Notes: a model not told the origin generated them from the sequence alone. DNA of 64,000 nt from Escherichia coli (GCF_003018255.1 NZ_CP027440.1), one strand, 5' to 3'. Positions 4,504 to 15,918 are shown, counted from the stretch's first letter. Translations and numbers: made by a program.

Positions 4504-7500
4504 TTACTGGAAGCAGGTCACCAGACCCGGTTTATTTTTTATTAGCGTGATACTACAATCCTGCGCTCCAGTACCTTCGTCCATCCCACACTGTTGAGAG
4601 GACAAATAAGGAAAACTGGGTGAAGACGGCCATCCCAGTGAATTAAAAACAGTATGCAACAACTCTAATTCATTGTATGTCGGTGCATTTTCTATGCTGC
4701 CACACTGCCTTGCGATATCCCATTTACTGGCATCAATGATATGTGCAGAAGCCCAGTTTTCGTAGTTAATAATCGGTGAGGATACGGGATTAGCCCCGGA
4801 CGGCAATTCCGTCGTTAACAACGGTCGATGTAGCGATTTACTAGTCACCACTACCGTGTCTGCCATATGTCCCCAAAAGTGCGCCGATGAAACATTTGGG
4901 CTGGTTGGCACCGTAAAAATAGCATCCAGCGTGTCTGTCGCGGAAGCGTAATTAGCCAGAGTAACCGTCAGTGGCATTTTATAACCAGGGGTATTATCCT
5001 GGCGGAGCGTAAAACTTGCCGTCCCATCCGCGCCTGTCATGCCACTAATGGTATTACCGCTTTCACTCAGCGTAACAGCCGAACCTGATAACGGCTGAAC
5101 GACGAGATCGTCCATCGCCACTACATTGCCATACAACGTTGCCCCAGCGTTACGCGGCGATGCCTCACCACGTTTCAAAGTAAATTCAACATTCGGCACC
5201 GTATTCCCGGCGCTGTCTTTCACCGTCACGGTTACGGACATGGCTTCGCCTTTTTTCACTTTCGCCGCCTGAGTGGCTGCATCAAACGCTGTTGAGGTAA
5301 GTGTGACGCTGGAAACGGTTGAACGCGCGTTAGCCAGGCAAGGCTGAAATGATTTTGTTGAACCCGTATACAGCGTGCCATTTCTCAAATCAACCGACTG
5401 GTCTTTACCATCGGCGGATTTATCCTCTGCCCACCAGGTGTAATACGCAGGCCAGCCAGTTTCAGTGACAAACGTGTTATTCGGATAACGCGCAGACAAC
5501 GAACTTAAATCATTGAATAGTGGCTGCCTTGCTACTTCACAAGGGCTCACACTCGCATCTGATTTCTGTGTTGGGGTAAAGTACGGCCAGTCTTCATTAT
5601 TGTTATTGATCTTGCCGACGCCAGAAGTCGATGTCAGTTCACTCCACAATTTCGGGCGTTCAAATACCGCACCATTCACTGCCGTCAAGGTTGCTGGCAT
5701 ATGCCCCCAGTAGTTAGCCTTCGCAGAATCCGGGCTGGTCACTACCGTGAATATCAGGTCCTGATTAGCCGTAACCTGCGGATTTCGCGCCAATGAAGCT
5801 GTAAACGGCGTTACCAGACCGACGGTGTTATTTTGGGTAACGTTGAACGTTATCGTGCCATCACTGCCGGTGAAGCCGCTCCATGCCGACGTATTCTGGT
5901 TGAAGGAGATACGCGCCGATGTTGGGGTGACTTCATCTAAAATGAGATCATCTACGGTATTGGAGGATACAGAGATCCCTGAACGGCTTTTCGCCTGCAC
6001 GCGCTTGAGCGTAACACCTTCGCCGCCAACAGGATTACCATTGGCATCTTTGATCGTCACCACGATGGGAAGCATCTCACCTTTTTTCACAGATGACGTG
6101 GGGGTACCACCATTGCTGGCAGTTCGGCCCTCATCATAGGCAGTCGATGACAGCGTAAGGCTTGCTGGTGCCGAATGTGGCTGCGTCAGACAGAGCATTA
6201 AAGCGTATCCATTAATAGTCGTCGTCGATTGTCCCGTTTTCAAATTAATGACGCCGTAATACCACGTCAACGCGTCAGTGGTGCTCATTTCATAAGTCCA
6301 CCAATTTCCACTTCCGGCAGTTATAGGCAACCCCAAATCTGTCAGTATTGTCCCGCCTGGATGATCATTATATAGCCCCTGTAACTCATTGAGACGCGGC
6401 TGATACTCAACCGGGCAATCCGGCGTAACTTTATTGGTATAAAAAAGGTATGACCACGACTCATTATTATTACTTACCGAGGACCCCAAGGTCGCTTCTG
6501 CTGCCAGTAGCGGTCGTTTAAAGGTCACCCCCGCCCTACTGGTAAACGTGTCGGGCATATGACCCCAGTATTTTGCTTTCGGTGAGTTCGGACTGGTTAT
6601 CACAGTGAAAATAACATCCATCGTGGCACTTTTTGTGGTGTCGCGCATCAATGTTGCAGTGAGCGGAGTTGCCAGCCCATAAGTCTCGTTTTGCGTCACA
6701 TCAAAAGTCGCTTTACCATCACTTCCTGTCGTCAGAAGTGCCTGTGCCCCATTATTATAGAGTGACATGTTTACTCCGGCAGGGGTGACCGGCACGATAG
6801 TAAGATCATCATACGTAGAATCTAGCCTGTTTTTTGCACGATCCAACGCAGTCCCGCGTATGAGATTAAAGTTTGCGCCTGGCAACAGATTTCCTCCGCT
6901 ATCCCGCACAATCACCGTCATCCGGATCGCCGTACCTTTCGCCGCCGTTGCACTAGGGCGACCATCGTTGCTGGCCGTTTTCTCCGCATCCAGTGCCGTG
7001 GAGGTCATCTCTATAGAAGCTGCCACTGCATGAGGGTTTACCAGACAGGACACAAATGCCACGGTGTTTGATAATGCCCTGGAGCTTGATCCATTCGATA
7101 AATTAATAGACTGATCGTACCAGACGTTCGCGTAGGCAATTTTATCGTAAGCCCACCAGGTGTTAGTCAGCGGAAGGCCTAAATCGGTCCCTATCGCACC
7201 ATTAGGATGTTCACTGTATAACTCTTGAAATTCGCTTAATAACGGTTGATAAGGTTCGCCGCAGTCTGATTTGCTGACATCATTTTTTGCTGCCGTATTC
7301 AAAGAAAGCCATGATTCATTATTAGCCATGGTTGACTGCCCCGCTGGATGCTCGGCAGTAAGCAATGGCCGCTTAAAGGCAATTCCCGACCGGGTAGTAA
7401 ACGTTTCAGGCATATGCCCCCAGTAACTTGCCAGTGGCGTATCCGGGCTGGTTATGACGGTAAACATGACCGGTAATTTGTTGGATTCTATCGTCAGCTG

Positions 7501-10500
7501 ATACAACTGGGCGTACATATTGGTTACCAGGCCCATAGAATCATCTTGTTTTACCGTAAAGGAGGTAGTCCCGTCCGCGCCAGTCACCCCATAAAGCAGG
7601 CTTGAAGAACTATTCATCCTCGCAGAAGCGCCTGCCGCGTTAATTACCGTAATCGACTTATTTATCATCTCGGCATTTTGACGGTTCTTCGAGCCTTCAC
7701 GTCTGAGAATAAAGGGGACATTGGGCACGCTATTTCCCTGCGTATTTTTAGTCACCACGCGAATCACCGCGTCTTCGCCTTTTTTCACTTTCAACGCACT
7801 CAAGGTGTCGTCAACTTTGACAAATTGCGCCGTATCATTCGCCTCAACAATGATCTGACTGGCAACGGCGACAGGCGTGGTCCGGCAGCTCAGTAATGCA
7901 CCACCAGATGAGGGCATCTGCGTTTCATCTCCTGTCTTCAGCGAAACGACATCATACGTAAAGGTTTGAGTGAACGTATCTGCAACGGTATTCGAGATAT
8001 AGAACCTCGACACTGGCCAGCCAATAGCATCATGTAATGCGCTACTCCCCTGGTGCGCATAAATGGCCCTAAGTTCATTGTCAGTTGGAACATACTCCGC
8101 GCCACAACCATTTATCGAGGTATCGTTAGCCTGGCCCGACGGGAACGTAGACCAGGCCTCCCCCTCTTCCACCAGGGTACCGATACTGGTGGTAGCACTA
8201 TTCTCGTCCCTCAGCAAAGGCCTTCGATAAATAAGACCGTCATCGCCTGTCGCCGTTTCAGCCATATGCCCCCAGAATTTGGCTTTTGGCGAATCCGGGC
8301 TGGTAAGCACCGTAAAGACAACGGGAAGCGTCGATTTAGTGCTGCTGGAGGAATCCAACGCTGCCGTGAGTTCTGTTTTTAGCCCGGTAGTCTGGTCTTG
8401 CTTCAATGTGAAAGTGGTGATGCCATCAGCCCCCGTCACGCCATAAATAACCAGGGTCGTTGAAAGAAAATCATCTTGAGTATTTCCCCAGGCATCCGTT
8501 ACCGCCAGCGAAGCAATCGACGTCGTAGTTGACACATTGGCCCTGTTCACGCTGGTGTTTCGTTTGAGGGTAAATGCGGTATTTCCCACAGGGTTACCCT
8601 GCGCATCTTTAGTGGTCACTCGTAATACGGCTTCTTCGCCTTTTTTCGCTTTGACAACATTATTCGTACTGTCAAATTTTGTGGGGTCTGCAGCTTCAAG
8701 AACAATTTGGCTTGCCTTAACAATCGGCGTCGTCTGGCAGGTAAGCAGTTCTTTTGTGGCAGATGGAATTATCGAACTGGTGCCTGAACTGAGATTGACG
8801 GCCTTGAAGTCACGCTGTTCCAGGCTACTACTACCTGTTGTGCTGGAAAGGTAACTTGAGGCGACGGGCCAGCCCTGAACCGTTTTCATCGCATTGCCGC
8901 GGTTGGCTTCATACAATGACTCCAGCCCGGCCTGGGAGGGAACATATTCACTACCACAACCATTAGAGGCTGTGCTTATAGCCTGGGTTTGGGTAAATTG
9001 CGCCCAGTCTTCATTCTCTTCTGCAATCGCTGTTCGACCCGACGTACTGGATAACTCTTTCAACAATAATGGGCGTTTAAAGACCGTTCCATCTGCAGCC
9101 GTCACTGTTTCAGGCATATGCCCCCACATTTTCGCCTTATCGCTGTCCGGGCTGGTGACAACGGTAAAAATGGTATCGAGGGTCGCTTTTTTCGTTGTGT
9201 CTGAATAGAGCGCGACGGTCAGCGACGTTTTTGTGCCATGGGTATCCGGGCGGGTAATAGTGAGAATTTTAGTGCCATCGCTGCCGGTCATCGCGCTGTA
9301 TGCTGCGGCGGTATCATTGAGCGAAGTTTCATCCGCCAGGCCACTATTGATCACAACCGGCGCAACCAGCGCATCACCGCCACCGGCAATGTGTTTTTCG
9401 TTTGATCGGGTATAACCATCGCCACGCTTCAGCGTAAAAGGCATATCACCCAATGGATTGCCCTGAGCATCTTTTACCGTCACCTTCACCTGTAGCGTTT
9501 CGCCTTTTTTCAGCTTCGCCGCATTTGCTGCCGCGTTCCACTGCGCCGGGTCCACCACTTCCAGCGTAATGCTGCTGGCAGGATTGTTAGCCGTCGTCAG
9601 GCAACTGACATAAACCGCCGTGCTACCGCCAACGGTCCGCGCGCCATCGTTGAGGGCTATGGTGTAGTAATGCGGCACCTGATCCGCGGGCGAACTGCTC
9701 CAGTAGGGCTGACGCTGCGTTGGCCAACCGTGTACCGTTTGAACGGCGTTACCGCTGTTAGCATCATAGAGCGCGTTAAGCTGGGAACGGCGTGGGAGCA
9801 TATTGGCACCACAGCCACCTTTACTGGTGCTGGAAGTGTTGGCCTGGCTAACGCGCGACCACACTTCGTTATTTTCCGTTAATGTGCCGTCCGGGCTGGA
9901 CACTTCCGCAGCCAGCCGGGGTCGGGCAAAGGTTAATGCATCGACGGTAATCGTCTCATCCATATGACCCCACATCTGCGCGCCAACCGCATCCGGACTG
10001 GTGAGCGTAGTGAAAATCACATTGTAATTAACAGTATTGGGAATATAGGAGTTTACAGGCGCAATATTCAGCGGCGTCGCTAAGCCCACACCTTGCGGTT
10101 GCTTAATTTCCACAGTAGCAAAACCCTGCGCATCCGTAGTACCGGCATAGACTAAAGACGGTTGCGATGTTCCGTAGAGTGTGCCATTCATCTCGATTGC
10201 GCCGCGGGTTGGATCATCAAAACCTGTAGTCTGCCCCTGACGATTTTTCCCCATATCTTTAGTGATGGTGAACGCGGTATACGGCACGGGCGCATTATTC
10301 AAGGCATTAAAGGTGCGTACCGTCATGGTAATCGTTTCACCCTCTTTAGCCTGCGCTCTGCTGCTTGTGGAAACATCATGATCGGTGGTCGCAGCAATCT
10401 GGGCGACCATCTCATTGCCCGAACAAGAAAGGTAGTTTTGCTTAAAGCCGGAATAGGTGTCGATGTTGCCCGTGGCCAGGTTCACCGACGCGTGCGACGT

Positions 10501-12558
10501 CTCTTCCACCGCACTAAGATACGCTTTTTGCAACGTTGGCCAGCCATATTCGGTGCCGATGACATTGGCTGGATGTGCGGCAAACAAACTGTGCAATGAG
10601 CTTTGGCTCGGAATATGACCTAAACCACACTCAGCCTGCATACTGCTATTCTGATCAAACAGCGCCCAGTCTTCGTTATTTTCCCGCACTGCTCCCAGTT
10701 CGTTGTCGGTTTCATCCGCCAGCCGTGGGCGTTTAAAGATATTATTCGCTTCAATAATGCCTAACATATGTCCCCACATCCGCGCTTTGTCGGAATCAGG
10801 GCTGGTGATCACCGTAAAAATAACGTCTTTCTCATCCGAGGCGGTAAAATCACTGCGCATTTTCGCGGTGATGTGTGTTTTCACCCCCACGCCGCCTGGC
10901 TGGGTCAGCGTCAGAGAGGCCTCTCCGTTAGCATCAGTGATCCCTTCATAGGTATGCGCGTCAACTTTGCGAACGTTACTGCCACCATCAATTTGTACCG
11001 GATGCGTCTCCCACGCAGCGTCAGTTTGATTCTTACGGTTAACACCGTCATCCAGATGCAGCGAAAAGTAGTAGTAAGCCAGCGGCTGATCGTTGTTCTT
11101 GCTATCGGTAATCGTCAGGCGTAAAGAAGCCTCTTCCCCCACCTTTACTTTCATCGCTTTTATCGTCGAATCATAACTGCCCGGCGTCAGTACCAGCTTC
11201 GGTTCAACATCGGGCGCTTCTTTATCGACACAGCTCACAATAAACGTCGTATCGTCCGGTTTTTGCGCTTCGCTGCGGTTCGAAACATCCGCCGCATGGT
11301 GCTGCCCGCTCATCCCCGCCAGTGATGACCAGTAGTAGTTACCCTGCATCGGCCAACCAGCCACATCCTGCACTGACGTTGGCACCACCGTCGCCAGCGC
11401 ACCGAACTGACGCATTCCGGGCAAAATGTCGCAATGTTTATCCGCACCACTCCAGGTAAAGGTGGACCAGGTTTCATTGTGATCGTTAACCGTACCGTCT
11501 TCATTATCGACTTCCGCCGCCAGTTTTGGTCGACTAAAAGTGTAATCACGGGCCTTCAGCGTATCGGGCATATGACCCCACATTGTGGCCTGCGGGACAT
11601 CCGGGCTGGTGAGGACGGTAAAGATCACTGCCGTTTCACTGGTCTGAGCAATACCCGCGAGGCTCGCGACCAACGGCGTTTTTACACCAGGGGCGTTGGC
11701 CTGGGTGACCGTAACCGTGGCAACACCATTCGCATCGGTAGTACCACGATATTCCGTCGCGGTGGTGGTTAATTCGGTCGTGCCCAGTTTTACCGGCGCA
11801 GTATTGTTCACTACACCCTGGCGGTTTTCAGCATCTTTGCGTTTGATAACAAAAGGAATATTCCCCACAACATTACCGACGCAATCTTTGGTGGTGACCG
11901 TTAACGTGATACTGCCGCCAACCGTCGTTTTCGCCGCACCGGAGGATTCGTCATAGCCCGCGGCGCTGACGGAAATAAGGTCACCCTGCGCGGGCGCAAT
12001 CTTCAGCGTCACTTTCTGATCGGCGAGGGTCAGAACACTTTCATAGGGATAGCCCGTCGAGGTAAGTAGATATAACAGCGGCATGGTCTGCTGGGGGTCT
12101 GGCTGCGCCCAGGCGATCAGCGAACGCCCGGCAAGGCCCTGTGCGCAAAATGAGCGATCTGCGACTGGCTGTGGGTCCAGTAAGGTGTCCGGCGTCGCGG
12201 CATCCGCCCAAACTAAAGATACTGTCGGTGGCGTTTGGTTTTCCCAACGTGGTGTGGCAATGATATCGCCTTCTCTGTCTTGCGGGTTGGTGACGAGCAA
12301 TTTAGAGACGCTAACATCCGCGCTGAATTCACTCGGTTTAGCGGTAAACGCTACCTCATGCGTCTTTGCAGGATCCAGAAAGACACTGCCCTGGTAGACG
12401 GGTATGCTGGCACTGTCGGCGGTGGGCACGGTACCGTTAAATTCGCCGACCGTATCTGAAGAGTCTTGCCATGCAGATTCTGCCCATGCCCCCCCAGGCA
12501 GCATTGCGCTTATCAGCAATGCGCAAAACACAAGGATTTTATTCAGGGTCAGGGACAT
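4504..12558 (-). CDS. ratA: giant secreted repetitive Ig-like protein, RatA family (2684 aa)
   Basis: Uninterrupted 8055-nt ORF with GGAG 8 nt upstream of the ATG. The N-terminal Sec signal is [26 protein letters not shown]|ES. It contains nine reiterated modules, each holding a Big_1/invasin-like segment (KKGE..L.V.V.KDA.GNP...FTLKR...G.TG.DG...). It lies downstream of sinH-sinI between xseA and yfgJ, as in the Salmonella CS54 island. Confidence 0.85.
4507..12006 (-). repeat. nine tandem divergent coding modules (~804-858 bp each) inside ratA
   Basis: The protein motif (I/V/M)FT(V/T)xTSP(D/N)...(M/F/Y)WGHM recurs nine times. Its WGHM codons appear on the + strand as CATATGNCCCCA at 11569, 10765, 9961, 9115, 8263, 7411, 6556, 5698 and 4864. 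The spacings are 804, 804, 846, 852, 852, 855, 858 and 834 bp. Apart from this motif the copies differ substantially at nucleotide level. Confidence 0.9.
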
Positions 12559-12602
12559 GACAGAAACTCCACCGGTTGTTAAACGGACGCTTGTCGCATC
12601 AA

Positions 12603-12637
12603 CATATTTTGCTTAATCCGGGATTAAGCAAAATATG
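12603..12637 (-). promoter_or_regulatory. 35-bp perfect palindrome (17-nt arms, 1-nt centre) in the sinI-ratA spacer
   Basis: catattttgcttaatcc-g-ggattaagcaaaatatg. It lies 45 nt upstream of the ratA ATG and downstream of the hairpin at 12644-12667. It could be an RNA stem-loop (processing or stability) or a dimeric-protein operator. Confidence 0.5.
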
Positions 12638-12643
12638 CGGAAA

Positions 12644-12667
12644 CAGCATTCCCTTGCGGGAATGCTG
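12644..12667 (-). terminator. terminator-like hairpin just after sinI (possible attenuator before ratA)
   Basis: cagcattccc-ttgc-gggaatgctg is a perfect 10-bp stem with a 4-nt loop, 12 nt after the sinI stop. On the coding strand only TTTCC follows, so termination is likely partial at most. Confidence 0.4.
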
Positions 12668-12678
12668 CTGAGTACGCG

Positions 12679-13656
12679 TTATTTGTGTTTGTAAATAATG
12701 TGAAGTTTGTACCCCTGTACCCCGTCGCCGTTGGTCGGGATGGTAAGAGCTTCTTTACCATCGCGCGCAGGGCCGTTAAGGTTGGTTCTGGCGTCTTCGT
12801 TGGTCGCAGGGATGACCAGATTGTTATTATCGAAGCTTGAGTTGACGATACCACCCGAGGTGCCGAGCTGTTGGCTGCTGCCAGAAAGTACCCAACGGAA
12901 GTCATAATTGGCGGTAACGTCAGCATCGGTATCCGCATCAAACTTGCCATTTTTGTTCTCATCCGAGTACAGTTTGGCCACGTAGGTTTTGCCAAGTTCG
13001 ATTGGCGTACTGCCGTTGATAAGGTTGATACTGGTACCATCAACAAAGATGGCGACTTTCAGGTTCTGGTTAACTACCGGCCCTGGCGCAACGTTGTCGC
13101 TGTCGCTTCCGCCGCCGCTGGCAGTGGAAATGTCATAAAGATGCAGCGCAGTCCCGACGTTTGGCGTACCGGTCTGCGTGGTCGGCGTAATTTCAATACC
13201 GATATAACGACCACGGTCGTCATCGGTAAGAGTGTAACTGGTCACCTTCGTTGCCAGCTCTTTCGGATCGCCCCCCTGAGCGTCCTTGTAGCTCATCCAG
13301 CGGATAGTATCGATAGTCTTTGCGTTATCGCCCAATCCCCCAAGATCCACGTCGCCTTCGGTATCACCAATTTCCCAACTTACGGTTAATTTATCACCCG
13401 AGTAAAGACGCTTGTCCGTTTCACTGCCTGTCGGGCGAGCGCCTTTTAGATCAGAAGTCAACGTTACATGGTCGGCATCTGTCGTAGCGCTTCCCCCTTC
13501 CGAATAGAGCCACGGAATGGTTCCCTGGAAAATATTGGTTTCGCCGCTGTCGACCCAGGCGCTTTCTTCCGCCAGCGCCACAGGTGCCACACAATAACCT
13601 GCCAGTGCCAGCGCCAATGCGATCCGGGTCAGACCGCGTCTTTTATCCTGCTTCAT
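12679..13656 (-). CDS. sinI: secreted SinI-family protein (325 aa)
   Basis: ORF with the SD AAGGAGAG upstream and the Sec signal MKQDKRRGLTRIALALALAGYCVAPVALA|EE. It sits between sinH and ratA. Its C-terminal ~130 aa are paralogous to the SinH C-terminus, and its mature N-terminus resembles that of RatA. Confidence 0.85.
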   Translation of the reverse strand: MKQDKRRGLTRIALALALAGYCVAPVALAEESAWVDSGETNIFQGTIPWLYSEGGSATTDADHVTLTSDLKGARPTGSETDKRLYSGDKLTVSWEIGDTEGDVDLGGLGDNAKTIDTIRWMSYKDAQGGDPKELATKVTSYTLTDDDRGRYIGIEITPTTQTGTPNVGTALHLYDISTASGGGSDSDNVAPGPVVNQNLKVAIFVDGTSINLINGSTPIELGKTYVAKLYSDENKNGKFDADTDADVTANYDFRWVLSGSSQQLGTSGGIVNSSFDNNNLVIPATNEDARTNLNGPARDGKEALTIPTNGDGVQGYKLHIIYKHK

Positions 13657-13710: not shown

Positions 13711-15888
13711 TTATTTTTTGGTATACAGCACGCGTAAACCGTATCCCTGCAAGCCATCTCCCGCTTGTGCGCCATAGGTTTGCGCTGCTTCGCGGTTAGT
13801 GGCCGGAATCACAATGTCCTCATTGGAAGAGTTCGCCTGTGCACCCACTTCACCATTGATGCTCTTGCCGGTAAATTCCCACTTGTAGTCGTACTGCGCC
13901 ATCTCTTCGTCAGTCAGTTTTTCGACCTGCTGGAAGACACCGTCTTTATTGCTGTCACGCCACAAAACAAATCGATAAGTGTTGTTGAGCGGCAGCGGTT
14001 CTTTATCTTTACCTATCAGGTTGCTGGGTTTAGCTGCCCCCACACGATAGATAAATGCATTTAGCCCACCAATTTCTGCCCCGAGGAAAGTGACATCCAC
14101 ATAGTTACTGTCGTCGTAGGGCGCAGCTTTTGCTTTCCAGCGATAGGTGCCGGGTAAGGTACTGGAGAGGGTGACAGTGCCCTTTTCTTTATCTTGTTTA
14201 GCGATAAAAACGCAGGGGTTGTCGGTCGAGCAAGGCTTGTTGGTTAACGTCACTCGTTTGTCCTGCGCGTCGTAAAGCCGCGGCGTGAGGTTATCTTCCG
14301 GCAGCGCATCGCCATTGCGGTCGGTGTTATCGCCAAAGCTGTCGGTTACATCGAGATCCATCACCACACCATCAACGCCATCTGCCTGGGCGCTGGCTTC
14401 GTGGCTGTGGTTGTTCTCTTCCGGCACGTTCGCGATGTTATTAACAATCAACTCAATTTTACGGTCCTGCTGAACGGTGATTTCCACCACACCAGAGTTC
14501 TGTCGGTTGCCCTTTTCATCTTCCAGTGCCAGACGTACTCGCCAGGTATTGAGTTTTTCTTGTTCGGCTTTGTCAGAGCTGTACTGCCAGGCGGGCAGCA
14601 CCAGGTTCCAGTGGTTATTGTTACCCTCTGTCAGGGTATTCTCTTTGATAACCGGCATAACCAGCGTGCGGGCAGCATTGTTTTTCGCCTGCCATGACGC
14701 AGCGACAATTTTGTAGTGGTGGTTGATAAGCGCGTTAATGGTCCACTTACATTTTTCCAGCCCGACCGCCGCTTCAGGCGTATCTTTAATGACACACTCG
14801 GGGTGTTCGTTGGTGGCATCCGCTTTTAACCACAGGGTGACATCAAGCGGATCTTTTTCTTTGTATTCCAGAACAATAAAGTTATTACGCTCAACAAAAT
14901 CATGACGACTGCCCATCAACGAGTGAGCCGCTTTCACTTTATCGCTATCCAATTGATCTTTTAGCGGAACGCCGAACTGATAATTAAGAGTGGCATTAAT
15001 GCTGACATCGCTGTTATCTCCGGTCCCCGCTTTATAGTCCGCCCCAACGGTTAGTAATGGCACCGGTTGATAATTCAGTCCAAGTGTTACCGCGTAGGGA
15101 TCTTTCTCCAAATTATCCGTACCAAAAAGGGCAACTTCATCGCCGTAATATTGCTCGAAGACAACTTTGCCCCCCAGTTGCGGATAAGAAGGTAACCAGG
15201 CTTCGGCGCGAATATCCCAGCCGCGCGCAGGACGCTCCTCATAAAAATCGAAATCTTCGGAGTCTTTCCAGTCAGAAAGCGGATGATAATAGTTGCCAGA
15301 GAATTTTAAATAATCAGTCCACGCTTCGCCGCCTAAACCTAAACGGCGATGTCCTCGGGTAAAATCATAATCATAAAATATATTCCCGCCCAATAACCAT
15401 TCATTAAAATTATGTCTTACCCCAAGACCAATATTCCCGATTGTACGATCTTCTTTTCGCTGCGCAGAAAATTGACTGAAATAAACAGTGGTTTGATTAT
15501 CGTACCAGGGAACAAAATAATCGATGGAACTGCCATCCAGATCGCCGCCCTGGCCAATGGAGAGGTTCGAACGGACCTTACCGTAGGGAGAGAGAGTGTC
15601 TTCAATATAAGATTGTGCGGTTGAGGTGATTTGACTTTGCAGATAGCTTCTGGCCTGAGATTCCAGCGCCTCAGGGGTCAAGTTTTCAAACCCTTGCGTG
15701 GCGGAGTTGATGATGTAATCGGCTCCGCGCTCTTTCAGCGATTTACCCTTGTTGGTTTGTTCATCCTGCTGTGCTGCCTGGCTACCTAAATCAGGTAACG
15801 ATTCGTTTTGCTTAACATTTATCTCTGGTGCCGCGAAAGCAGCACCAGAGATAAATGTTAGAATAATACAGCGTTTCCATCGCAGCAT
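13711..15888 (-). CDS. sinH: intimin/invasin-like inverse autotransporter outer-membrane adhesin SinH (725 aa from ATG 15888)
   Basis: The ORF-track entry begins at 15918, but that codon is TTG. The ATG at 15886-15888 has AGGGAAAG upstream and yields the signal peptide MLRWKRCIILTFISGAAFA|AP. Diagnostic inverse-autotransporter beta-domain motifs are present: GWDIRAEAWLPSYPQLGGKVVFEQYYGDEVALFG and MGSRHDFVERNNFIVLEYKEKD. Compare intimin GYDIRAEAYLP...EQYYGD and LGSRYDLVQRNNNIILEY. Confidence 0.88.
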   Translation of the reverse strand: MLRWKRCIILTFISGAAFAAPEINVKQNESLPDLGSQAAQQDEQTNKGKSLKERGADYIINSATQGFENLTPEALESQARSYLQSQITSTAQSYIEDTLSPYGKVRSNLSIGQGGDLDGSSIDYFVPWYDNQTTVYFSQFSAQRKEDRTIGNIGLGVRHNFNEWLLGGNIFYDYDFTRGHRRLGLGGEAWTDYLKFSGNYYHPLSDWKDSEDFDFYEERPARGWDIRAEAWLPSYPQLGGKVVFEQYYGDEVALFGTDNLEKDPYAVTLGLNYQPVPLLTVGADYKAGTGDNSDVSINATLNYQFGVPLKDQLDSDKVKAAHSLMGSRHDFVERNNFIVLEYKEKDPLDVTLWLKADATNEHPECVIKDTPEAAVGLEKCKWTINALINHHYKIVAASWQAKNNAARTLVMPVIKENTLTEGNNNHWNLVLPAWQYSSDKAEQEKLNTWRVRLALEDEKGNRQNSGVVEITVQQDRKIELIVNNIANVPEENNHSHEASAQADGVDGVVMDLDVTDSFGDNTDRNGDALPEDNLTPRLYDAQDKRVTLTNKPCSTDNPCVFIAKQDKEKGTVTLSSTLPGTYRWKAKAAPYDDSNYVDVTFLGAEIGGLNAFIYRVGAAKPSNLIGKDKEPLPLNNTYRFVLWRDSNKDGVFQQVEKLTDEEMAQYDYKWEFTGKSINGEVGAQANSSNEDIVIPATNREAAQTYGAQAGDGLQGYGLRVLYTKK
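14854..15636 (-). other. SinH inverse-autotransporter beta-barrel plus linker region (approx. ORF residues 95-355)
   Basis: The region spans SQITSTAQSYIED... to ...FIVLEYKEKD and carries the intimin/invasin beta-domain motifs listed for sinH. Boundaries were estimated by eye. Confidence 0.6.
15813..15860. repeat. 19-bp perfect inverted repeat with 10-nt spacer inside the sinH signal-peptide codons
   Basis: taacatttatctctggtgc (15813-15831), spacer cgcgaaagca, then gcaccagagataaatgtta (15842-15860). It begins 28 nt downstream of the ATG at 15888 and encodes LTFISGAAFAAPEINV. Confidence 0.9.
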
Positions 15889-15918
15889 GCACTTTCCCTG
15901 TGACAATGATACAGTCAA

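What the first reader, a model, noticed from the sequence alone, without database searches (positions are those of the whole stretch)
4504..12558. RatA: nine alternating Ig-like and Cys-bracketed modules, with no barrel, anchor or obvious export device
After a Sec signal and a ~160-aa unique region, the protein is nine repeats of a two-part unit. Part (a) is a Big_1/invasin-like Ig segment ending in IFTVxTSPD..A.(M/F/Y)WGHM. Part (b) is a ~120-130-aa segment with the pattern F.RP.L..E...NE.W......CG..(Y)(V/Q)P....L..LY.......GWP (or TDLGLP)...Y/W....L..G......C. It is bracketed by two conserved cysteines, and the protein ends right after the last one (VTCFQ). A disulfide-bracketed domain after Ig domains resembles the C-type-lectin-like tip of intimin/invasin. 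Here it is reiterated internally nine times, which would make a multivalent binding rod. Unlike intimin/invasin, RatA has no beta-barrel, LysM domain, lipobox or C-terminal sorting motif that I can recognise.
Basis: partly seen in the sequence, partly recalled or inferred. Interest (0 to 1): 0.7.

Follow-up and report, generated by a model that had tools for sequence, protein, structure and literature searches.

The report
RatA giant repeat adhesin, SinH partner
This is the known E. coli RatA-like protein, a 283-kDa chain of nine Ig-plus-lectin-fold units copied from the tip of Yersinia invasin E; it has no barrel of its own but always sits right after the sinH barrel gene and sinI, so the architecture is ordinary and only its route to the cell surface is still open.

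Summary
ORF 4504-12558 (minus strand) encodes 2684 aa: a signal peptide, a ~165-aa N-terminal domain and nine two-part modules. Pfam names both parts: 9x BIg21 (PF05688, ex-DUF823) and 9x InvE_AD "adhesion domain" (PF05689, ex-DUF824). NCBIfam has a full-length model, "RatA-like protein".

"No export device" holds only for the polypeptide. The next two genes upstream on the same strand are sinI and sinH, an inverse-autotransporter barrel. sinH-sinI-ratA is collinear in 21 of 21 species-representative genomes. Heinz et al. (2016) already proposed Rat-like proteins as substrates of this barrel, by analogy with ZirT/ZirS.

One increment seems new. RatA and SinI share a motif just after the signal peptide, (LK)SGxWQ-x5-TGxIxGTxP. 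The RatA N-domain also recurs on a different cargo in a remote barrel-partner-partner cluster. It may be the targeting or docking module.

Verdict: already known; low-to-moderate interest.

The parts
4504..12558 (-). ratA-like CDS, 2684 aa (mature protein about 283 kDa, pI 5.0)
   Evidence: ORF list and translation. NCBIfam NF011844 'RatA-like protein' scores 5883 bits against a cutoff of 3870, over residues 1-2684. Mass and pI.
12481..12558 (-). Sec-type signal peptide, aa 1-26 (cleavage after AWA inferred)
   Evidence: Read from the sequence: n-region K7, a hydrophobic core, and A-W-A at -3/-1. No lipobox. No signal-peptide predictor was available.
12415..12480 (-). N-terminal motif shared with SinI, aa 27-48 ([22 protein letters not shown]; family consensus LK-SG-x-WQ-x5-TG-x-I-N-GT-x-P)
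   Evidence: A 25-aa HMM built from RatA homologues only finds 14 SinI N-termini at E 1e-6 to 3e-3, ahead of any unrelated ORF. 46 of 48 regex hits in 497,000 aa are SinI or RatA N-termini and none is in an unrelated ORF. hhalign on mature sequences gives E=3e-4.
11989..12480 (-). Family-specific N-terminal domain, aa 27-190, with conserved Cys138
   Evidence: 42 representatives among 1.84 billion proteins; in every full-length hit (>700 aa) except three weak repeat proteins it lies at the N-terminus of a Rat-like protein. No Pfam or PDB sequence match. Weak similarity to Ig-like repeats of the GH2_C5 type. Cys138 and Cys226 are conserved in 14/14 homologues.
4507..11991 (-). Nine BIg21 + InvE_AD modules. 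aa 190-443, 444-712, 713-986, 987-1274, 1275-1558, 1559-1838, 1839-2123, 2124-2407, 2408-2684. Window 11230-11991, 10423-11229, 9601-10422, 8737-9600, 7885-8736, 7045-7884, 6190-7044, 5338-6189, 4507-5337.
8737..9156 (-). Representative part (b): adhesion domain 4, aa 1135-1274, C-type-lectin-like fold bracketed by Cys1201 and Cys1274
4507..4905 (-). Terminal adhesion domain 9 (aa 2552-2684), a distinct four-Cys subtype (2619, 2657, 2668, 2682), ending VTCFQ
   Evidence: The same four-Cys pattern and a C-x-x end are seen in four of the five full-length homologues examined (P0033, P0034, P0042, P0045). P0043 has only two Cys in its terminal domain (QCGS...ATCVQ).
12559..12678 (-). sinI-ratA spacer with two perfect hairpins. 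The first, CAGCATTCCC-gcaa-GGGAATGCTG, comes right after the sinI stop codon.
   Evidence: RNA fold -49.7 kcal/mol, z = -6.0. The first hairpin is conserved in many other genera. No Rfam family. The terminator scan did not flag it because the T-run is short.
12679..13656 (-). sinI, 325 aa, 'SinI family autotransporter-associated protein'
   Evidence: NCBIfam NF040711 E=1.4e-99. Weaker hits: ZirU_fam 1e-7 and the SinH C-terminal region 2e-11. RefSeq annotation of near-identical loci.
13711..15918 (-). sinH, inverse autotransporter (12-stranded IAT_beta barrel, aa 73-346) with a short passenger. RefSeq records annotate a shorter 2178-nt CDS, so the true start is probably internal.
   Evidence: Pfam PF11924 E=1.8e-108; NCBIfam inverse_SinH scores 1486 bits. 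RefSeq CDS length.

Best explanation
RatA is the large, barrel-less third product of the sinH-sinI-ratA cluster (called 'ila' in E. coli; related to the Salmonella CS54 island), inserted between xseA and yfgJ/der in E. coli.

**Shown here**
- It is made with a Sec-type signal.
- It has a conserved ~165-aa N-terminal domain.
- It then has nine Ig (BIg21) + C-type-lectin-like (InvE_AD) units. Each unit is homologous in sequence and fold to the Ig+adhesion tip of the Yersinia inverse autotransporter InvE.
- Each lectin-like domain is closed by a conserved Cys pair.

**Inferred**
- After Sec export and disulfide formation in the periplasm, RatA is brought to, and held at, the cell surface through the neighbouring inverse autotransporter SinH. 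SinI probably takes part. This is the type Ve two-partner arrangement shown experimentally for ZirT/ZirS.
- The element recognised is the N-terminal domain with its post-signal-peptide motif, which RatA shares with SinI.
- Once outside, the nine Ig-lectin-fold units form a long multivalent adhesin with a distinct four-Cys tip domain.
- Its ligands are more likely host proteins or matrix than sugars bound through calcium.
For: **Architecture**
- Pfam finds 9+9 domains and NCBIfam has a full-length equivalog.
- The nine modules align end to end.
- AF2 models have pLDDT 89 and 94.

**Link to SinH**
- sinH and sinI lie directly upstream on the same strand, with gaps of 54 and 120 nt.
- The order sinH-sinI-ratA is the same in 21/21 species representatives from at least seven genera. 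Module number ranges from 4 (in a contig-truncated locus) to 10 per gene.
- The three genes lie together, in the same order, in all 15 E. coli records listed or inspected. DNA matching the 11.5-kb locus is present in 1749 of 5426 complete E. coli genomes, and 934 of them cover at least 80% of it.
- A remote cluster, L028, has an IAT 41% identical to SinH, then a SinI-like protein, then a protein carrying the RatA N-domain fused to a different Ig + Cys-bracketed cargo.

**Shared N-terminal element**
-.

**Precedent**
- ZirS secretion requires ZirT (PMC2270342).
- Rat-like proteins were proposed as IAT substrates (PMC4943183).
- Deleting the ila genes attenuates UPEC in mouse UTI (Shea 2022, as summarised in PMC12928451).
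Against: - No experiment on RatA localisation or SinH dependence could be found or read. Shea 2022 is not held.
- A review states only that sinH and sinI are co-transcribed (PMC12525524). A conserved strong hairpin separates sinI from ratA.
- An intimin-type 12-stranded barrel is plugged by its own linker. SinH extracellular domains are protective antigens, so the SinH passenger is outside (PMC9937491). It is therefore unclear how a 283-kDa protein with about 10 disulfide-closed domains could cross through it. Heinz et al. call this an unsolved knot.
- The RatA-SinI similarity outside the ~22-aa motif is weak: hhalign probability 40%, E 3e-4. A profile against the single E. coli SinI sequence found nothing.
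- ratA is a pseudogene in some E. coli strains that keep sinH and sinI intact.
Confidence: 0.6

Rival explanations
1. RatA crosses the outer membrane by a system other than SinH, such as the type II secretion system, as the barrel-less invasin-like adhesin InvL of Acinetobacter does. The linkage with sinH/sinI would then reflect only joint function on the surface, such as docking on their Ig-like domains or co-regulation.
For: - InvL lacks a barrel and needs GspD for surface exposure (PMC9245377).
- A disulfide-rich multi-domain rod that folds in the periplasm suits a secretin better than a plugged 12-strand barrel.
- The SinH passenger is itself surface-exposed.
- Tsai et al. proposed that partner proteins non-covalently extend the passenger (PMC3008723).
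Against: - InvL is a lipoprotein; RatA has no lipobox.
- No T2SS gene is linked to ratA in any of the 21 loci, whereas sinH and sinI always are.
- ZirS, the only tested partner protein of this kind, depends on its IAT.
Confidence: 0.2
2. RatA is a true calcium-dependent, glycan-binding lectin array, as the first reader suggested with the glycan-array test.
Against: - No EPN/QPD or WND motif occurs in any of the nine domains.
- The columns conserved across modules (WGHM, RP.L..E, NE.W, GWP) are shared by all modules and look structural rather than ligand-specific. This last point is inference.
Confidence: 0.12
3. RatA is a decaying or dispensable remnant of the Salmonella-type island with no current function in E. 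coli.
For: A frameshift or an internal stop is annotated in two of the inspected strains. Allele length varies, with a 2139-aa form. Identity classes are very divergent, and 796 genomes match at only 60-80%.
Against: - An intact 2139-2693-aa ORF is kept in five of the seven inspected E. coli records and in 21 species.
- All nine Cys pairs and the structural motifs are retained at 30-39% module identity, which indicates purifying selection on the fold.
- A UTI phenotype is reported for the locus.
Confidence: 0.05

Closest known systems
InvE (invasin E) of Yersinia pseudotuberculosis, PDB 5N40; Pfam PF05688 BIg21 + PF05689 InvE_AD
   Different: From the literature and the Pfam name, InvE is a classical inverse autotransporter with its own barrel and a single adhesion domain at the tip. 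RatA has no barrel and repeats the unit nine times after a family-specific N-domain.
Salmonella RatA / RatB (CS54 island: sinH, sinI, ratA, ratB, shdA); NCBIfam NF011843 and NF011842
   Same: Same N-domain, same DUF823/DUF824 repeat architecture, and same position after sinH-sinI between xseA and yfgJ.
   Different: The scores against the Salmonella models (2012 and 2204 bits) are below their cutoffs (3700 and 4079). The window protein instead belongs to the separate E. coli equivalog NF011844. Module number differs.
ZirT / ZirS / ZirU of Salmonella (two-partner use of an inverse-autotransporter barrel)
   Same: An IAT gene is followed by Sec-exported, barrel-less, Ig-rich partner genes. SinI weakly matches the ZirU family (E=1e-7). 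ZirS secretion depends on ZirT.
   Different: ZirS and ZirU are small. RatA is about ten times larger and full of disulfide-closed lectin-fold domains. Dependence of RatA on SinH is untested. I could not retrieve ZirS or ZirU to look for the N-terminal motif.
Intimin and invasin (type Ve adhesins)
   Different: In those proteins the barrel and LysM are in the same polypeptide, and there is one lectin-like domain, only at the tip. There is no detectable sequence-profile similarity to RatA part (b).
InvL of Acinetobacter baumannii
   Same: An invasin-like Ig + lectin-like adhesin without a barrel, implicated in urinary-tract infection.
   Different: InvL is a T2SS-dependent lipoprotein with one lectin-like domain and no linked IAT gene. 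RatA has no lipobox and is always linked to sinH.
Classical two-partner secretion (TpsA/TpsB, e.g. FHA/FhaC)
   Same: A very large Sec-exported adhesin with a conserved N-terminal domain, encoded next to an outer-membrane barrel gene.
   Different: The barrel is IAT_beta, not Omp85/POTRA. There is no TPS domain and no beta-helix (Pfam). Gene order is barrel first.

Membership tests
NCBIfam NF011844 'RatA-like protein' (equivalog) | Full-length HMM score above the curated cutoff | tested here: met
   5883 bits against a cutoff of 3870, residues 1-2684 on profile 1-2683.
DUF823/DUF824 (BIg21 / InvE_AD) repeat adhesins | Alternating PF05688 and PF05689 domains | tested here: met
   Nine stretches of each, E=4e-203 and 5e-279.
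C-type-lectin-like fold superfamily | Alpha/beta lectin-like fold of part (b) | tested here: met
C-type-lectin-like fold superfamily | Disulfide bracketing the domain | tested here: inconclusive
   One Cys ahead of helix 1 and one in the last strand are invariant or nearly invariant (≥90%) in 40 domains. Bond formation itself cannot be tested in silico here.
Calcium-dependent carbohydrate-recognition domains (true C-type lectins) | EPN or QPD motif plus WND motif | tested here: not met
   Absent from all nine domains.
Inverse autotransporter (type Ve: intimin/invasin/InvE/SinH) | N-terminal IAT_beta barrel in the same polypeptide | tested here: not met
   No PF11924 hit in RatA, although SinH next door scores E=1.8e-108 in the same search.
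Inverse autotransporter (type Ve) | [quoted passage not shown] | tested here: met
Two-partner type Ve system (ZirT/ZirS-like) | Barrel-less, Sec-exported partner encoded next to an IAT gene | tested here: met
   sinH-sinI-ratA are collinear in 21/21 species loci and in a remote cluster. The signal peptide was judged by inspection.
Two-partner type Ve system (ZirT/ZirS-like) | Secretion or surface display depends on the IAT | not testable with these tools
   Needs fractionation of a delta-sinH strain. No published data could be read.
Classical two-partner secretion (type Vb) | TPS domain in the exoprotein and an Omp85/POTRA transporter | tested here: not met
   No such Pfam family in RatA, SinI or SinH.
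T2SS-dependent surface lipoprotein adhesins (InvL-like) | Lipobox signal peptide | tested here: not met
   Cleavage region PGGAWA|ES. The only Cys in the signal peptide is in LVFC and is not conserved.

The most novel reading that the evidence does not exclude
The ~165-aa N-domain of RatA, headed by the motif (LK)SGxWQ-x5-TGxIxGTxP that lies 3-8 residues after the signal-peptide cleavage site and is shared with SinI, may be a previously undescribed targeting or docking module of two-partner type Ve systems. It would be the functional counterpart of the TPS domain. SinH-type inverse autotransporters would use it to recognise several barrel-less cargoes, which could be swapped behind it, as in the remote L028 cluster. 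This would give a concrete handle on the unresolved question of how IAT partner proteins reach the surface.
Probability: 0.35. Interest if true: 0.6.

Novelty: already known. Interest (0 to 1): 0.3.

Why it matters
The sinH-sinI-ratA locus matches DNA in about a third of complete E. coli genomes (1749 of 5426). It is associated with extraintestinal pathogenic strains, and SinH is being pursued as a vaccine antigen.

RatA is by far the largest product of the locus. It would project nine invasin-tip-like binding domains, yet neither its ligands nor its route across the outer membrane is known.

How a barrel-less, disulfide-rich 283-kDa protein uses, or bypasses, a 12-stranded inverse-autotransporter barrel is an acknowledged open problem in type V secretion. 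The shared N-terminal module described here makes that problem directly testable by deletion and swap experiments.

The architecture itself is not new. It is catalogued in Pfam and NCBIfam, and the repeating unit has a crystal structure.

Tried and rejected
1. Sequence-profile search of part (b) (40-sequence alignment) against PDB found only InvE.
3. The RatA N-domain profile against single SinI or SinH sequences gave nothing. Against PDB it gave no hit, and Pfam gave no family. Only family-versus-family and motif-level tests showed the link.
4. A profile search with the SinI alignment, meant to reach ZirS/ZirU and test whether the motif is general, returned only SinI orthologues in the 120 rows shown. 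That question is unresolved.
A narrower alignment worked but recovered no Salmonella locus.
6. Shea et al. 2022 (the E. coli ila locus) and Sadana et al. 2017 (the InvE structure) are not in the library. Their content is cited only second-hand or from my own knowledge.
7. Rfam on the sinI-ratA spacer gave no family. The terminator scan did not flag the hairpin.
8. Considered and rejected:
   - Lipoprotein anchoring: no lipobox.
   - A classical TPS system: no TPS domain and no Omp85 transporter.
   - Part (b) as a second Ig domain: the fold search says otherwise.
Full report
**What is there.** The window is E. coli-like chromosome (guaB, xseA | ratA, sinI, sinH | yfgJ, der, bamB, yfgM, hisS ...). 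The ORF at 4504-12558 on the minus strand encodes 2684 aa. It starts with a Sec-type signal peptide ([26 protein letters not shown]|ES; judged by inspection). Next comes a ~165-aa domain, then nine two-part modules of 254-288 aa. The FTVxTSPD...WGHM junction occurs nine times, and the cysteines fall into nine bracketing pairs. The last module carries two extra Cys and the protein ends VTCFQ. The nine modules align over their full length at 30-39% identity to module 4, with 27 invariant columns.

**What the parts are.** Pfam recognises both halves: nine BIg21 domains (PF05688, formerly DUF823; E=4e-203) and nine InvE_AD 'adhesion domains' (PF05689, formerly DUF824; E=5e-279). Big_1 is only sub-threshold. 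NCBIfam has a full-length equivalog model for exactly this protein, 'RatA-like protein' NF011844 (5883 bits). The Salmonella 'DUF823/DUF824 repeat adhesin RatA/RatB' models score below their cutoffs. RefSeq calls the gene 'adhesion domain-containing protein'.

The only solved relative by sequence is Yersinia pseudotuberculosis InvE, PDB 5N40 (E=1.7e-18 for one part (b); 4.7e-29 with a 40-sequence profile).

- then FGE/EgtB-type domains, LYVE-1 and TSG-6 Link modules, conglutinin, mannose-receptor CRD-4, SP-D, CD72, NKG2/CD94, tetranectin, selectins and others

That is the C-type-lectin-like superfamily. However, none of the nine domains has the EPN/QPD and WND motifs of calcium-dependent sugar binding. 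The nearest structural relatives are the compact protein-binding domains of invasin and intimin. 'Lectin-fold adhesion domain' is justified; 'lectin' is not.

**The missing export device is next door.** RatA itself has no IAT_beta barrel, LysM, lipobox or other anchor. Directly upstream on the same strand lie two genes:
- sinI (12679-13656; 'SinI family autotransporter-associated protein', E=1.4e-99)
- sinH (13711-15918; inverse-autotransporter barrel PF11924, E=1.8e-108)

The gaps are 54 and 120 nt.

Using the RatA N-domain as bait, I recovered 21 species-representative loci from Escherichia spp., Pseudocitrobacter, Citrobacter, Atlantibacter, Superficieibacter, Kluyvera and Leminorella. All 21 have sinH-sinI-ratA in the same order and spacing. 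The number of adhesion domains ranges from 4 (a locus cut off by its contig end) to 10 per gene, and Leminorella has a second Rat-like gene.

In E. coli, DNA matching the locus occurs in 1749 of 5426 complete genomes, always on the chromosome. The alleles are very divergent. Variants include a 7-module 2139-aa allele, and a frameshift or an internal stop in some strains.

**What the literature says.**
- Heinz et al. 2016 (PMC4943183) place SinH among 'two-partner inverse autotransporters'. They explicitly hypothesise that Rat-like proteins are substrates of the neighbouring barrel, by analogy with ZirT/ZirS. They also note that a plugged 12-strand barrel makes the mechanism a 'Gordian knot'.
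- Gal-Mor et al. 2008 showed ZirT-dependent secretion of ZirS (PMC2270342).
- Tsai et al. 2010 suggested instead that the partners extend the passenger non-covalently.
- Goh et al. 2019 note the same analogy for the E. coli SinH orthologue IatB.
- A 2026 genome paper summarises Shea et al. 2022: the E. coli 'ila' cluster (sinH, sinI, ratA) contributes to bladder-cell invasion and ascension in mouse UTI.
- A review says sinH and sinI are co-transcribed.
- SinH extracellular domains are protective vaccine antigens, so the SinH passenger is exposed.
- InvL of Acinetobacter shows that a barrel-less invasin-like adhesin can use the T2SS instead, but as a lipoprotein.

I found no accessible experiment on RatA localisation.

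**What I can add: a shared N-terminal module.** The N-domain (aa 27-190) is not 'unique'. It defines a small family (42 representatives among 1.84 billion proteins). In the full-length hits (>700 aa), apart from three weak matches to repeat proteins, it lies at the N-terminus of a Rat-like protein. It has no Pfam or PDB match.

Right after the signal peptide it carries (LK)SGxWQ-x5-(S/T)TGxIxGTxP. SinI orthologues carry the same motif at the same place. For example, in locus L015 RatA reads LKSGTWQELNRSTGAINGTIP and SinI reads LKTGQWQIVTASTGTIQGTVP.

The tests were:
- A 25-aa HMM built only from RatA homologues, without signal peptides, was searched against 4179 six-frame ORF segments. It ranks the RatA orthologues first, then 14 SinI N-termini at E 1e-6 to 3e-3, before any unrelated ORF.
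- A loose regex gives 48 hits in 497,000 residues. Of these, 46 are at SinI or RatA N-termini, 2 are internal to SinI and none is elsewhere.
- Family-versus-family hhalign gives E=7e-7 with signal peptides and 3e-4 without. It shows collinear weaker anchors (D-x-EGD, T-x-TG-x-P).
- The curated NCBIfam SinI model hits 2 of 16 RatA N-domains at E 9e-4.

The most remote N-domain homologue is P0060 (30% identity, E=7e-13). It lies in an unrelated genomic neighbourhood as the third gene of a cluster: an IAT 41% identical to SinH, a SinI-like protein (31%), and then P0060. There the N-domain is fused to a different cargo, a Big_2-like Ig plus a Cys-bracketed C-terminal domain. Both partners begin TESTGAINGTVP / TEATGILSGTPP just after their signal peptides.

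The N-domain thus travels with SinH-type barrels and can carry different cargo. That is what one expects of a targeting or docking module, but this reading is an inference.

In addition, Cys138 in the N-domain and Cys226, which is present only in the first BIg21, are conserved in 14/14 homologues at near-constant spacing (79-90 residues). This suggests an interdomain disulfide.

**Most likely mechanism.**
- Shown: the architecture, the fold, the synteny and the shared N-terminal element.
- Inferred: Sec export and disulfide formation in the periplasm; recognition of the N-terminal module by SinH and/or SinI; surface display as a long multivalent adhesin with a specialised four-Cys tip; and protein or matrix ligands rather than calcium-dependent sugars.

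I put about 0.6 on this package. About 0.5 of it is for SinH dependence specifically, and roughly 0.2 goes to another export route with docking only.

From my own knowledge, intimin's lectin-like D3 also carries a periplasmically formed disulfide loop of about 77 residues and is still exported. The 67-75-residue loops in RatA are therefore not in themselves incompatible with a type Ve route.

**Verdict.** The protein, its domain families, the structure of its repeating unit and the two-partner hypothesis are all already on record, so the finding is 'already known'. Residual interest lies in the open export question and in the shared N-terminal module, which appears not to have been described; Heinz et al. 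call the N-terminal region 'highly divergent'.

Noticed in passing
window 12559-12678 (minus strand), between sinI and ratA: Two perfect hairpins fill the 120-nt spacer (RNA fold -49.7 kcal/mol, z -6.0). The first, CAGCATTCCC-gcaa-GGGAATGCTG, comes right after the sinI stop and is conserved across several genera. It may attenuate read-through into ratA and so set the SinI:RatA ratio. No Rfam family matches, and the T-run is too short for the terminator scan.
   Followed up: partly
window 12145-12147 (Cys138) and 11881-11883 (Cys226), minus strand: Cys138 in the N-domain (SFCAQ) and Cys226 (TKDCxGN), found only in the first of the nine BIg21 domains, are conserved in 14/14 homologues about 88 residues apart. 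This points to an interdomain disulfide locking the N-domain onto the first Ig domain.
   Followed up: partly
L002 2251-10331 (EcPF7), L026 501-8543 (PK8275), L027 8999-15418 (23CRST027): In some E. coli strains ratA is annotated as a pseudogene (frameshifted; internal stop) while sinH and sinI stay intact. Another lineage has a shorter 2139-aa allele, the length expected for about seven modules (not counted). E. coli alleles fall into very divergent identity classes (>=95%, about 90%, about 77%).
   Followed up: partly
window 13711-14030 (SinH C-terminus) and 12679-13035 (SinI C-terminus), minus strand: The last ~100 residues of the SinH passenger and of SinI are homologous. The SinI model hits SinH 629-732 at E=5e-21, and the SinH model hits SinI 208-325 at E=2e-11. 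Both end in DG(V/L)QGY.L.(I/V).Y.
   Followed up: no
L028 4656-9242 (GCA_041359215.1): A remote three-gene cluster: an IAT 41% identical to SinH, a 294-aa SinI-like protein, and the 413-aa protein P0060, which carries the RatA N-domain. It sits among aromatic-dioxygenase and ABC-transporter genes and resembles the Yfr4 operon described by Tsai et al. 2010. The organism was not identified.
   Followed up: partly
window 4507-4905 (adhesion domain 9), minus strand: The terminal adhesion domain is a conserved subtype with two additional cysteines (QCGS...C...C...TC-x-x end) in four of five orthologues examined. It is distinct from the eight internal domains, so it may be the primary tip-binding domain.
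   Followed up: no
window 15889-15918, minus strand: The mechanical ORF for sinH starts at a TTG (735 aa), but RefSeq records annotate a 2178-nt CDS (725 aa). The true start is probably the internal ATG (MLRWKRC...).
   Followed up: no
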